Shown: positions 22,301 to 25,300 of the stretch, in pieces
Layout of the letters: each line of letters begins with the position of its first letter
How positions within the stretch are numbered: position 1 is the stretch's first letter
Source of the DNA: Eledone cirrhosa
Taxonomy: Eukaryota
Direction: 5' to 3'
DNA: 64,000 bases
NCBI GenBank assembly: GCA_964016885.1
Contig: OZ024741.1
Location: 399,776,001 to 399,840,000 of the forward strand
Notes under the pieces: generated by a model
Database searches by the model: none
Told to the model about the DNA's origin: nothing
The model's input: the letters and a program-made list of their open reading frames with translations, nothing else
Program-made: the position numbers and the translations under genes

Positions 22301-25300
22301 TTTTCGTGTAGTGTTTTTGATGTTCAGAGAGTGGGATTGGTCGAGTGCAAGGCCTTTCCCCACTTAAAAAACATTCAAAGCCTACTACTACTTGCCTTAG
22401 TAGTTTAGTAGTTAGAGAGATGAATTAATGATCATGAGGTTGTGAGTTTGATTCCCAGGGTGGGTGATGTGTTGTGTCCTTGAGCAAGATACTTTATTTC
22501 AAGTTGCTCTTTCTGTCAGGAGTTGCAACAGGTAGATAGTATCAGCAACTAGAAAGACCAATGGAAACATTGATTCCTTGGTCCAATTTGATGAGTTCTA
22601 CTTCACTCGGTAGATAGTATCAGTAATGGAAAGACCAATGGAAACATTGTTTCCTTGGTCAGATTTGATGAGTTCTACCTTGCTCAGTAATCAAAGGAGT
22701 TCTGGAAGCTTGTAGATCAATAATATTAAAAATATTGCGAACGGATAAAAATAAGTTATACTTACATAATTACATAATTACTAGGTAATTAATATTAACA
22801 TCATAATGATACTTACGAGTTGCTGAAATAAACAGAAACAAATGAAAATATTAACGAGGGGCTCATAATAATGAATAAATTAGCAGCAATTGTGTGTGTA
22901 TGTATATATATATATGTGTGTGGGAGTATGTGTTTGTTTGTGTGTGTGTGTATCTGTGTGTGTATATATATATATGTGTGTGTGTGTGCATCTGTAAATA
23001 AATATATATATATATATATAATTATGTAATAAACAACATAAAACAATTATTCTATTTACCAAAGGTTTCAGACGTCTCTGTTGAGCTTGTGTCTTCGTGA
23101 AACCTTTGGTAAATGGAATAATTGTCTTATGTTGTTACATAATTACATAATTAAATAGCTCTGTAGCCTACATAGAGCACTCTCCTTTCCTTTACCCTTC
23201 CTACGGAAATATTTCATATATATATATATATTGTTATGCTTTGAGAGGGTCATGTTGCCAATAAGAAGCACACGCACCAGTTGCTTTCACTCCAATTTAT
23301 TATAAATTAAATTTATAAATTTAAGAATTTATAAATTTCCGGTTGGTTGGTTCGACAACCGGACGGTTGTTCATATATTGTCAAAGTTCTTTCGTCACAC
23401 ATTCTCTGACCTCTTCAGTGACTGGGGATTCTTTTCTTTGTTTTTGTGCCTCTCCTTTGTTCTGTCCTACGCCATCTTGTTTTTTCTTTTTTTTTTTTTT
23501 ATATATATATTCCCTTTTTCCCTATCTACTCTCACCCCTCTTTCTTCCCCTCCGTTTCTCCCTATCTATTCTCACCCCTCTTTCTTCACCCCCTTTCTCC
23601 ATATCTACCCTCACCCCTCTTTCTTCCCCTCCCTTTCTCCCTATCTACTCTTACCCTACTTTCTTCCTCTCACTTTCACCCCCTCGTCTGACCGTTTAGC
23701 AGTTCTCTTCTCACTTACAACAGTGGCGATCGGACGTGTGTCTTTTCTCTCGACCACTCGGTCTCAAACTTAAGTTCTATTATCAAGTGGTCTTGGATCT
23801 CCGACCTATAGTTGCTCGCACATTGCTCGGTTTGTGTTTTTTTTTCGCTGTTTTGTTATTGTTTCTCTTTTCTTCCCCTTTGCTTTCCTTCCCTCCTTCC
23901 TTCATTGTCCCAATAACTTATCCAGTTATTGACGCCCTGGGGTGAAGTGGTATCTTGTCTTTAAAGCGTAGAAATATCCTAGACCCCCAGTAGACAACTA
24001 ATGAAGACCCCCCCCCCTTCCGTTCTTGCTTTCTTCGTATTTCCACTGCATTTTAAGTTACCTTAAATAGCAACTACACAGCCATTTCTATTCTCTCTCT
24101 CTCTCTATATATATATGGGAGTGTGTGTATCTGTATATATATGTGTGTAGGGAAGTGTGTGTTTGTGTGTGTTTATGTGTATATATATATGTGGGGGGGA
24201 GGAAGTATGTGTTGGTTTGTGTGTATCTATGTGTATCTGTGAGTATATGTGTATGTGTTTATGTGTGTATATGTGTGTGTGTGTGTTTATGTGTGTGTGT
24301 GTCTGTGTGTATATGTGTGTGTGTTTATGTGTGTGTATCTGTGTGTATATGTGTATGTGTTTATGTGCGTGTGTGTCTGTGTTTATATGTGTGTGTTTAT
24401 GTGTGTGTGTATATGTGTGTATATGTGTGTGTGTTTATGTGTGTGTGTATCTGTGTGTATATGTGTGTGTGTTTATGTGTGTGTGTGTCTGTGTGTATAT
24501 GTGTGTGTGTATCTGTTTATGTGTGTGTGTGTGTTTATGTGTGCCTGTATGTCTATGTGTATATGGTCATCATTGTAATTTACAATTAGCAAATTTTCCC
24601 TGTCTCTCTTTCTCTCTTTCTCTCTCTCATTTTCACAGTTTCTCTCTCTCTATCTCCCTCTTACACACTAACCCTTTTTTCTCACCCCCTCTCTCATCCA
24701 CACAGTCTCCCCCTCTCCACTCTCTATCTCTGAAACTCACCCTTTTTCTCACCCCCTCTCTCATCCACACAGACCCCCCCTCCTCCTCTCTCATGAAAGC
24801 CAAAGTTGACCTCAGCAGGATTTGAACTCAGAGAGAAGAGATCCGAAATAAATACTGCAAATCATTCTATCTGGCGTTCTAATGACTGTCAATTAATTAT
24901 ATACTTACTTAATTAGCAGATAATTATAATTAACATCAAACTAATACTTACAATTACCTGAAATGAAAGAAAAAAAGAAATATTAGAAATCATCATCACC
25001 ATCAACATCATCATTATCATCATCATCATTATCATCATCAACAACATCATCACCATCATCACCATCACAATCACCATCAACATCATCAACATCATCACTA
25101 TCTTCGACATCACCATCAACATTATCATCACCATCACCAACATCAACATCACCACCATCATCATCAACATCACCATCAACACCATCACTATCACTATCAC
25201 CATCATCATCACCATCAACACCATCATTGAGACCAGAGAGTAATCCCATTATGAACCTTTAAACTAGAGACCCATGCTGACAATTCTTCTTCACATATTA

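What the first reader, a model, noticed from the sequence alone, without database searches (positions are those of the whole stretch)
22817..24957. Two 6-nt microexons; skipping one creates a stop codon at the junction
Seen: CAG|GTAATT|GTAAGT (24952-24957) and CAG|CAACTC|GTAAGT (22817-22822), both with long pyrimidine tracts. With both included the protein reads ...DELEN-C-N-S-T-Q-TC. The first supplies the last Cys of the LDLa-like module, and together they build an N-S-T sequon. Skipping the first keeps the frame but loses the Cys. Skipping the second, alone or with the first, joins T to AA (exon P start) and gives TAA even though 6 nt preserves frame. Inference: either an obligatory microexon or a splicing switch between full-length protein and NMD/truncated product. 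Standard annotation would probably split the gene here.
Basis: partly seen in the sequence, partly recalled or inferred. Interest (0 to 1): 0.75.

Follow-up and report, generated by a model that had tools for sequence, protein, structure and literature searches.

The report
Twin six-base exons bridge octopod gene
Two six-letter stretches 2.1 kb apart in an intron of an octopus-type von Willebrand/mucin-like gene are very likely real tiny exons: only they keep the reading frame open, and the Octopus bimaculoides protein has the same number of residues there. Such exons are a known kind that gene-finders miss.

Summary
Observation confirmed. On the minus strand, cag|GTAATT|gtaagt (24957-24952) and cag|CAACTC|gtaagt (22822-22817) lie in the 8.07-kb gap between a 75-nt Cys-rich exon (26218-26144) and a TIL exon (18070-17865).

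- **Frame:** the direct join gives TAA. Including both hexamers gives ...DELEN-C-NSTQ-T-CDEDGY.
- **Signal strength:** they are the two best-scoring of 325 AG-N(3k)-GT candidates in the gap. They are the only AG-N6-GTAAGT sites with a pyrimidine tract in 128 kb.
- **Duplication:** they share a ~95-nt homologous island, from a branch-like site to a second GTAAGTAT. The genome holds no other copy of it.
- **Orthologue:** Octopus bimaculoides XP_052827192.1 (3066 aa) maps collinearly. It reads ...DELEN-C-HNQT-K-CDED..., also five residues between the two Cys. An older model of that gene stops at this junction.
- **Rival dropped:** a U12-like donor 4 nt downstream is out of frame.

No RNA data could be reached, so inclusion and any regulated skipping or NMD switch are untested. 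Verdict: predicted genuine, probably constitutive, duplicated 6-nt microexons. This is a new member of a known kind, of moderate interest.

The parts
29640..29787 (-). VWC exon just upstream. It ends in phase 1 (TGTG|gtaaac).
   Evidence: Pfam VWC E=4.7e-08. It is 78% identical to P0008 residues 2395-2445. Sequence.
26144..26218 (-). 75-nt Cys-rich ('LDLa-like') exon, phase 1 to phase 1. Donor is ATT|GTGAGT. It leaves a T that is the first base of the sixth Cys codon.
   Evidence: It is 75% identical to P0008 residues 2442-2469. It is unique in the genome. Pfam gives no match.
24958..24985 (-). Conserved upstream flank of microexon 1: branch-like CTAAT at -26, a pyrimidine tract, then cag.
24952..24957 (-). 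Microexon 1, GTAATT. It completes Cys (T|GT), gives Asn, and leaves a T.
24893..24951 (-). Conserved downstream flank of microexon 1: GTAAGTAT donor at +1 and a second GTAAGTAT at +44.
   Evidence: (family D14).
22823..22852 (-). Conserved upstream flank of microexon 2: branch-like TTAAT at -29, a pyrimidine tract, then cag.
22817..22822 (-). Microexon 2, CAACTC. It gives Ser (T|CA) and Thr, and leaves a C, so the next codon is CAA and not TAA.
22757..22816 (-). Conserved downstream flank of microexon 2: GTAAGTAT donor at +1 and a second GTAAGTAT at +52.
17865..18070 (-). TIL-type exon ('exon P'). It starts in phase 1 with AA ACA TGT and ends AAG|gttagc in phase 0.
   Evidence: It is 70% identical to P0008 residues 2475-2541. 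It is unique in the genome.

Best explanation
The two hexamers are predicted to be genuine 6-nt exons, spliced one after the other into the mRNA of a large secreted VWD/C8/TIL/VWC protein. This gene, a von Willebrand-factor or gel-forming-mucin type, is the orthologue of Octopus bimaculoides LOC106875009 and lies on the minus strand.

Shown by the sequence:
- The 75-nt Cys-rich exon ends in phase 1 with a T.
- The next conserved exon starts in phase 1 with AA, so a direct join makes TAA.
- Microexon 1 (GTAATT) turns the T into the sixth, conserved Cys and adds Asn.
- Microexon 2 (CAACTC) adds Ser and Thr. It ends in C, so the junction codon becomes CAA (Gln).
- The product is ...DELEN-C-N-S-T-Q-T-CDEDGY..., with a five-residue linker that carries an N-glycosylation sequon.

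Inferred:
- Both are normally included (constitutive), because every product without microexon 2 is truncated and the product without microexon 1 lacks a conserved Cys.
- Exons this small are likely recognised by very strong signals. Each has a long pyrimidine tract, a cag acceptor, a GTAAGTAT donor fully matching the consensus, and a second GTAAGTAT about 45-50 nt downstream that may act as an extra U1 landing site.
- Splicing likely proceeds stepwise from the 5' side, so the growing exon (75, then 81, then 87 nt) carries each new donor.
- The pair arose by a local duplication of one microexon unit. Afterwards the coding hexamer diverged (2 of 6 bases alike), while the splicing signals around it were kept.
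For: 1. **The gene is intact and continues across the gap.** I kept 15 HSPs of O. bimaculoides XP_052827192.1 (P0008) as collinear with the window, from residue 1929 to 2659. Identity is 72.8% over 681 aligned columns, with no stop inside them. Residues 2442-2469 map to 26225-26142, and residues 2475-2541 map to 18065-17865.

2. **The orthologue has five residues there.** Between those two blocks it reads HNQTK. The two-hexamer product has the same number, NSTQT.

3. **Nothing else bridges productively.**
- The direct join gives TAA.
- Of donors within -45 to +60 nt and acceptors within 90 nt either side, the 15 in-frame pairs all use AGs inside exon P.
- Among exons up to 600 nt with good sites on both sides, only microexon 2 bridges alone.

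4. **Signal strength.** The hexamers rank 1st and 2nd of 325 candidates. They are the only 2 AG-N6-GTAAGT sites with a pyrimidine tract in 128 kb.

5. **A duplicated, conserved island.**
- Direct repeat D14 is 83 nt at 75% identity, with 2135 nt spacing.
- The local alignment score is 47, against a mean of 12.3, sd 2.1 and maximum 21 in 500 Markov shuffles.
- The island runs from about -28 to +58.
- A profile of the two copies finds no third copy at E below 1 in 94 kb.
- The 35-nt flank pattern occurs exactly twice in 3.0 Gb, against 0 for the control.

6. **Intron phase.** The other TIL exons of the gene also start in phase 1 (46 kb, 34 kb and 1.3 kb exons).

7. **The assembly is sound here.** DNA contigs cover both sites, and no differing letters are listed there.
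Against: - No RNA evidence exists for this species. The one run search listed no RNA holder, and its query was mostly intron.
- The five linker residues are not alike without gaps (NSTQT against HNQTK, 0 of 5). With gaps, N, Q and T line up.
- The exon structure of the O. bimaculoides locus could not be seen. It may have one microexon, a 12-nt exon or shifted boundaries. The RefSeq protein is itself a model.
- My splice-site score is a crude consensus count, not a trained model.
- Two copies made by duplication are not two independent coincidences.
Confidence: 0.78

Rival explanations
1. The hexamers are real exons, but their inclusion is regulated. Skipping microexon 2 would make a stop codon and send the mRNA to nonsense-mediated decay or give a truncated protein. 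Skipping microexon 1 would give a full-length protein with an unpaired Cys set. This nests inside the best explanation and differs only on constitutive against switch.
For: The outcomes are as computed. Microexon 1 starts with GT after an AG, so the join to the upstream exon recreates a weak donor (ATT|GTAATT) that could remove it again. Earlier notes on this genome report many optional microexons (unchecked).
Against: Both sites carry near-ideal constitutive-type signals. No TGC motif lies within 60 nt upstream of either, unlike what I recall for SRRM4-type regulated microexons. The only orthologue model seen includes the extra residues. There is no RNA to show any skipped form.
Confidence: 0.18
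2. Only microexon 2 is used, and microexon 1 is a decayed duplicate or decoy. The protein would read ...DELEN-S-T-Q-T-C...
For: Microexon 2 alone bridges in frame and still gives an N-S-T sequon.
Against: The product would lose the sixth Cys, which is conserved in O. bimaculoides (ENC). The linker would have three residues instead of five. Microexon 1 has the better acceptor score and its signals are kept.
Confidence: 0.05
3. Neither hexamer is an exon. The resemblance would come from a neutral local duplication of AT-rich intron. The gene would be bridged by other cryptic exons, or be truncated or split here.
For: There is no RNA. An older O. bimaculoides model does stop here.
Against: No other candidate with usable sites bridges the gap. 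The downstream exons stay open and 70-83% identical to the orthologue. The RefSeq orthologue is continuous. The conserved island matches the extent of splicing signals, and the sequence around it does not align.
Confidence: 0.04
4. A minor-spliceosome (U12-type) intron runs from a donor 4 nt downstream (TGA|GTATCT, last exon base 26140) straight to exon P.
For: The donor and a site 11 nt before the exon P acceptor each resemble the recalled U12-type consensus, with one to two mismatches. A branch-like site with at most 1 mismatch precedes only 147 of 7952 AGs (1.8%). The genome encodes U12 (128 bits) and U11 (96 and 94 bits) snRNAs. Molluscs are relatively rich in minor introns (PMC10639083, passages).
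Against: The join is out of frame and reads ...ENCENM**. It would not give the orthologue's linker. The GTAT after GTGA also occurs in both microexon donors, so it looks like part of an extended major-type donor.
Confidence: 0.01

Closest known systems
Octopus bimaculoides LOC106875009, XP_052827192.1 (3066 aa, 'uncharacterized protein'), with its older partial models UPI00069587E8 and A0A0L8GSF5
   Same: It is the collinear orthologue. It has VWD x3, C8 x3, TIL x4 and VWC x3. It has the same six-Cys module ending ENC, then five residues, then CDED.
   Different: The five linker residues differ (HNQTK against NSTQT). Its exon structure at this point is unknown to me. It may hold one microexon where this genome holds two.
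Known 6-nt microexons: TAF1 exon 34' (PMC6948980, abstract in the search listing) and the 6-nt exon of chicken cardiac troponin T (PMC8042270, passage)
   Same: Internal exons of 6 nt that keep the frame and are missed by standard aligners and annotation.
   Different: The TAF1 exon is a single, neuron-specific alternative exon regulated by SRRM4. Here there are two consecutive ones, no TGC motif near either acceptor, and skipping the second is not a viable isoform.
Duplicated or chained microexons noted earlier in this same genome (e1-8664734, e1-9507767) and the 6-nt ADAM17 microexon (e1-8671683)
   Same: The pattern is the same: tiny exons multiplied by local duplication, spliced in series, with exon letters diverging faster than their flanks. 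In the ADAM17 case a 6-nt exon carries an essential residue.
   Different: Those are other genes, and the notes are unchecked by me. Here there are only two copies, 2.1 kb apart, and they split codons (phase 1) so that each depends on its neighbours.
Recursive splice sites and RS-exons (PMC6224609, abstract in the search listing)
   Same: Microexon 1 has an acceptor directly followed by GT. Stepwise removal of a long intron is the likely route.
   Different: The regenerated donor at microexon 1 is weak, and microexon 2 has none. The hexamers must stay in the mRNA to keep the frame, whereas cryptic RS-exons are removed.

Membership tests
Microexon (internal exon of 30 nt or less) | Flanked by a functional-looking acceptor (pyrimidine tract plus AG) and donor (GT...) | tested here: met
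   cag acceptors, pyrimidine fractions 0.84 and 0.80, GTAAGTAT donors, ranks 1 and 2 of 325.
Microexon (internal exon of 30 nt or less) | Keeps the reading frame between the flanking exons | tested here: met
   both included gives an open frame; no other join works with the real exon P acceptor.
Microexon (internal exon of 30 nt or less) | Present in mature mRNA | not testable with these tools
   One search listed no RNA run, and laid DNA-like contigs only. The indirect support is the orthologue protein length.
Microexon (internal exon of 30 nt or less) | Conserved in related species | tested here: inconclusive
   The orthologue has the same number of linker residues but different letters. No other octopod DNA was available.
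SRRM4/eMIC-dependent neuronal microexons | UGC motif close upstream of the acceptor (feature recalled, not from a call) | tested here: not met
   no TGC within 60 nt upstream of either hexamer. The nearest are at -66 and -63 for microexon 2.
Recursive splice site | Acceptor AG directly followed by a consensus donor | tested here: not met
   Microexon 1 is cag|GTAATT, a partial match. Microexon 2 is cag|CAACTC, no match.
   No Pfam family at E up to 1 for the exon's open frame, and none at E up to 0.001 in the orthologue. There is only a six-Cys pattern with a ...DELENC tail. A more canonical ...CNRIVDCVDGSDEEDC exon lies upstream (L007 5371-5715).
U12-type intron | Consensus donor and branch site, and a productive reading frame | tested here: not met
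   The motif matches are partial and the join is out of frame.
VWF / gel-forming-mucin-like proteins | VWD-C8-TIL assemblies followed by TIL and VWC repeats | tested here: met
   Pfam on the orthologue gives VWD 7.5e-78 (3 stretches), C8 1.3e-39 (3), TIL 8.6e-21 (4) and VWC 6.2e-11 (3). Window exons give VWC 4.7e-08, above the cut-off, and TIL 0.0011, below the cut-off.

The most novel reading that the evidence does not exclude
The pair would be a two-step splicing gate on a giant secreted multimerising glycoprotein. Inclusion of microexon 2 decides whether any protein is made (TAA and decay otherwise). Inclusion of microexon 1 decides whether the six-Cys module closes its last disulfide or leaves an odd Cys free for intermolecular bonding. 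Tissues could then tune both the amount and the cross-linking of a mucin/VWF-like polymer with 12 nt. The second hexamer would have arisen by duplication in this lineage and become indispensable once the first came to end in T.
Probability: 0.12. Interest if true: 0.7.

Novelty: new member of a known kind. Interest (0 to 1): 0.4.

Why it matters
This is a clean, checkable case where 12 nt in two pieces decide whether a protein of about 3000 residues can be read at all. It also shows how annotation fails there: an older O. bimaculoides model of the same gene ends at this junction.

It adds to the picture, from other windows of this genome, that octopods make and multiply very small exons by local duplication while keeping the surrounding splicing signals. 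The two conserved islands mark out a minimal unit, from branch site to a second donor-like motif, that could be tested as a portable 'microexon cassette'. As a class, 6-nt microexons are already well known.

Tried and rejected
- **RNA evidence.** The stretch is about 97% intron and a holder needs a twentieth of the words, so RNA runs holding only the exons could have been hidden. This blank says nothing on expression.
- **Laying runs X1-X3.** These gave DNA-like contigs and no splicing information.
- **Protein searches with exon P.** 'Longer' (119-2000 aa) and 'near' (36-118 aa) found nothing, because the orthologue has 3066 residues.
- **Reaching longer proteins.** I gave a long genomic reference with 'region'.
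- **Representative search with exon P.** It gave 5 hits: four fragments 41-51% identical, and one low-complexity protein of 28% identity. None covers this junction.
- **Paralogues in the genome.** The Cys-rich exon and exon P each match only themselves, so there is no second copy of the arrangement to compare.
- **DNA search with the microexon 1 unit.** It found only itself.
- **Third copy of the island.** None at E below 1 in the window plus 30 kb of flanks.
- **U12-type direct join.** I held this at about 35% until one search showed I had miscounted the A's at the start of exon P. It is out of frame.
- **Other donors and acceptors.** Rejected.
- **Extended exons using the second GTAAGTAT.** Rejected by reading: the frame hits TAG after 5 codons (sequence).
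- **Earlier findings.** Look-ups by place near the window and by sequence gave nothing.
- **Literature.** Searches for microexon with cephalopod or Octopus found no paper on this gene or on octopod 6-nt exons.

Full report
**What is there**

The gene lies on the minus strand. A 75-nt Cys-rich exon (26218-26144) reads (G)[24 protein letters not shown] and ends GAAAATT|gtgagt. The next long coding exon, 'exon P' (18070-17865), starts ttacttgcag|AAACATGT and reads (x)[17 protein letters not shown]...GNIRK.

Between them lie 8073 nt, made mostly of microsatellites, a 48-nt tandem array and repeat fragments.
- microexon 1: tttcatttcag|GTAATT|gtaagtat at 24957-24952;
- microexon 2: tttatttcag|CAACTC|gtaagtat at 22822-22817.

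**Frame arithmetic**

A script that joined the pieces by coordinate gave these products:
- both hexamers included: ...DELENCNSTQTCDEDGY..., open through exon P;
- first skipped: ...DELENSTQTC..., open, no Cys;
- second skipped: ...ENCN*;
- both skipped: ...DELEN*.

**Is it more than chance?**

- AG-N6-GTAAGT with at least 11 of 15 pyrimidines upstream occurs twice in the window on both strands (128 kb). Both are these sites, on the gene's strand.
- TTTCAG-N6-GTAAGTAT occurs 15 times in the 2,995,841,428-base genome, against 26 for the backwards control. Two of the 15 are here.
- Of 325 AG-N(3k)-GT candidates of 3-30 nt in the gap, the two rank first and second by a crude consensus score of my own: 13.6 and 12.8, with the next at 12.1 and holding stops.
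- Among candidate exons up to 600 nt with good sites on both sides, only microexon 2 bridges the frame alone.

**The two units are duplicates**

Their flanks align. Direct repeat family D14 is 83 nt at 75% identity, with a spacing of 2135 nt. The local alignment scores 47, against a mean of 12.3, sd 2.1 and maximum 21 in 500 first-order Markov shuffles.

Tiles of real intron scored up to 34 and 49. Those matches are the (GAT)n and (CA/TA)n microsatellites beside the units, not the island.

The island runs from about -28 to +58. It covers:
- a branch-like CTAAT or TTAAT at -26 or -29;
- the pyrimidine tract and the cag;
- the hexamer;
- GTAAGTAT at +1;
- a second GTAAGTAT at +44 or +52.

Outside it the sequences do not align. 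Inside it the hexamers are the least alike part (2 of 6).

The 35-nt flank pattern occurs exactly twice in the genome, against 0 for the control. A profile of the two copies finds no third copy at E below 1 in 94 kb. So this is not a dispersed repeat. It is a local duplication whose preserved part coincides with the extent of splicing signals.

**The orthologue**

Searches with exon P failed. A search with the neighbouring VWC exon (29787-29638) found P0006, 80% identical. Its 90% cluster holds XP_052827192.1, 'uncharacterized protein LOC106875009' of Octopus bimaculoides, 3066 aa (P0008).

tblastn of P0008 on the window and 30 kb of flanks is collinear. I kept 15 main HSPs from residue 1929 to 2659, with 72.8% identity over 681 columns, and dropped the paralogous and low-complexity HSPs listed.
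- Residues 2442-2469 (...CIDELENC) map to 26225-26142.
- Residues 2475-2541 (CDEDNYDY...) map to 18065-17865.
- The five residues between, HNQTK, map nowhere.

The two-hexamer product has the same number of residues there, NSTQT. All six Cys of the module, including the one that needs T|GT from microexon 1, are conserved. Both species have an N-glycosylation sequon in the linker: NST here and NQT at residue 2471 there.

P0006 equals P0008 residues 1000-2469 plus 'RK' and then ends.

Pfam on P0008 gives VWD x3, C8 x3, TIL x4 and VWC x3. The gene is of the von Willebrand-factor or gel-forming-mucin type. No LDLa profile match was found for the 75-nt exon, so 'LDLa-like' is only a resemblance.

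**Rivals**

I first took seriously a donor 4 nt downstream (TGA|GTATCT). Together with a site 11 nt before the exon P acceptor, it resembles the U12-type signals as I recall them. The genome has U12 and U11 snRNAs. Molluscs are relatively rich in minor introns (PMC10639083, passages). A branch-like site with at most 1 mismatch precedes only 147 of 7952 AGs.

One search showed that I had miscounted. Exon P starts with three A's and the join reads ...ENCENM**, so this route cannot make the protein.

A scan of all GT/GC donors from -45 to +60 nt and all AGs within 90 nt either side found 15 in-frame pairs. All of them use AGs inside exon P and delete residues conserved in the orthologue.

Microexon 2 alone is in frame but drops the conserved Cys and gives a three-residue linker. 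Neutral duplication with no function does not explain how an otherwise intact gene gets across the gap.

**How it likely works (inferred)**

Exons of 6 nt leave little room for acceptor and donor complexes side by side. The likely route is stepwise splicing from the 5' side, with each hexamer joined to the growing upstream exon (75, 81, 87 nt). Its own consensus donor then takes over. The long pyrimidine tracts, the GTAAGTAT donors and the conserved second GTAAGTAT downstream would supply the strength.

Microexon 1 begins with GT after AG, so a weak donor is recreated at the join. This gives a possible route to skip it.

Whether any skipping is regulated, and whether the TAA forms feed decay, cannot be told without RNA. 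I put constitutive inclusion well ahead, because the signals are strong, no TGC motif lies within 60 nt upstream, and the one orthologue model includes the residues.

**What is missing**

- No RNA of this species could be reached. My single run search used a mostly intronic query, which may have hidden RNA runs.
- The exon structure of the O. bimaculoides locus is unknown to me.
- With gaps, the linkers line up as N..QT. This would fit one ancestral microexon and a lineage-specific duplicate here, but that is conjecture.

**Novelty**

Six-base exons have been known since the 1980s (PMC8042270, passage) and are well studied in neurons (PMC6948980 and PMC4387716, listing or abstract only). Earlier notes on this same genome describe duplicated and chained microexons and a 6-nt exon carrying a catalytic residue (unchecked).

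Searches for microexon with cephalopod or Octopus found nothing on this gene. This is a new member of a known kind. It is a tidy, well-supported prediction and a useful annotation fix, of moderate interest.

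Noticed in passing
window 26132-26143 (-) and 18072-18090 (-): Just inside the intron, GTATCTTG overlaps the major-type donor. TCATTAAT lies 11 nt before the exon P acceptor. Both resemble minor-spliceosome signals as I recall them. The join would be out of frame, so at most it is a non-productive competitor. The genome holds U12 (G000:C3:102792454-102792603) and two U11 genes (C4:182848605-182848738 and C1:365616724-365616857).
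   Followed up: yes
window 19529-21870: A tandem array of a 48-nt unit (43 or more copies in register) fills about 2.3 kb of the intron between microexon 2 and exon P. On the plus strand it gives long open frames of no evident meaning.
   Followed up: no
window 1180-1323 (-): The TIL exon ...ISKPPFCT ends ACAT|gtgagt, so it again splits a codon after a T. The orthologue continues ...PPHCTTIMTTT. The next exon was not found in the window or in the 20 kb beyond it until the block at L005 7530-6919. Another small exon may be hidden here.
   Followed up: partly
window 24990-25260 and 22880-23030: Each microexon unit has a microsatellite directly upstream: (GAT)n-like before microexon 1 and (CA)n/(TA)n before microexon 2. 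The types differ, so they arose after the duplication or mark its edge.
   Followed up: no
window 3313-5481 (-), 8277-9158 (-), 40326-41450 (+); L006 4999-5784 (-): Several copies of a non-LTR retrotransposon open frame (reverse-transcriptase-like, with a Cys-rich ...[19 protein letters not shown]... tail) lie inside introns of the gene.
   Followed up: no
L007 8313-9998 (-), i.e. G000:C2:399848313-399849998: A long open frame made of a 24-residue unit (HIGGARCTITCSGGETGVSDSNVY) repeated about 23 times lies upstream of the window, in an intron or exon of the same gene. It has no counterpart in the O. bimaculoides protein.
   Followed up: no
P0006 / P0009 (public proteins): The older O. bimaculoides annotation split this one gene into at least two partial proteins of 970 aa and 1472 aa. 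The second ends at the microexon junction with two residues read from the intron.
   Followed up: yes
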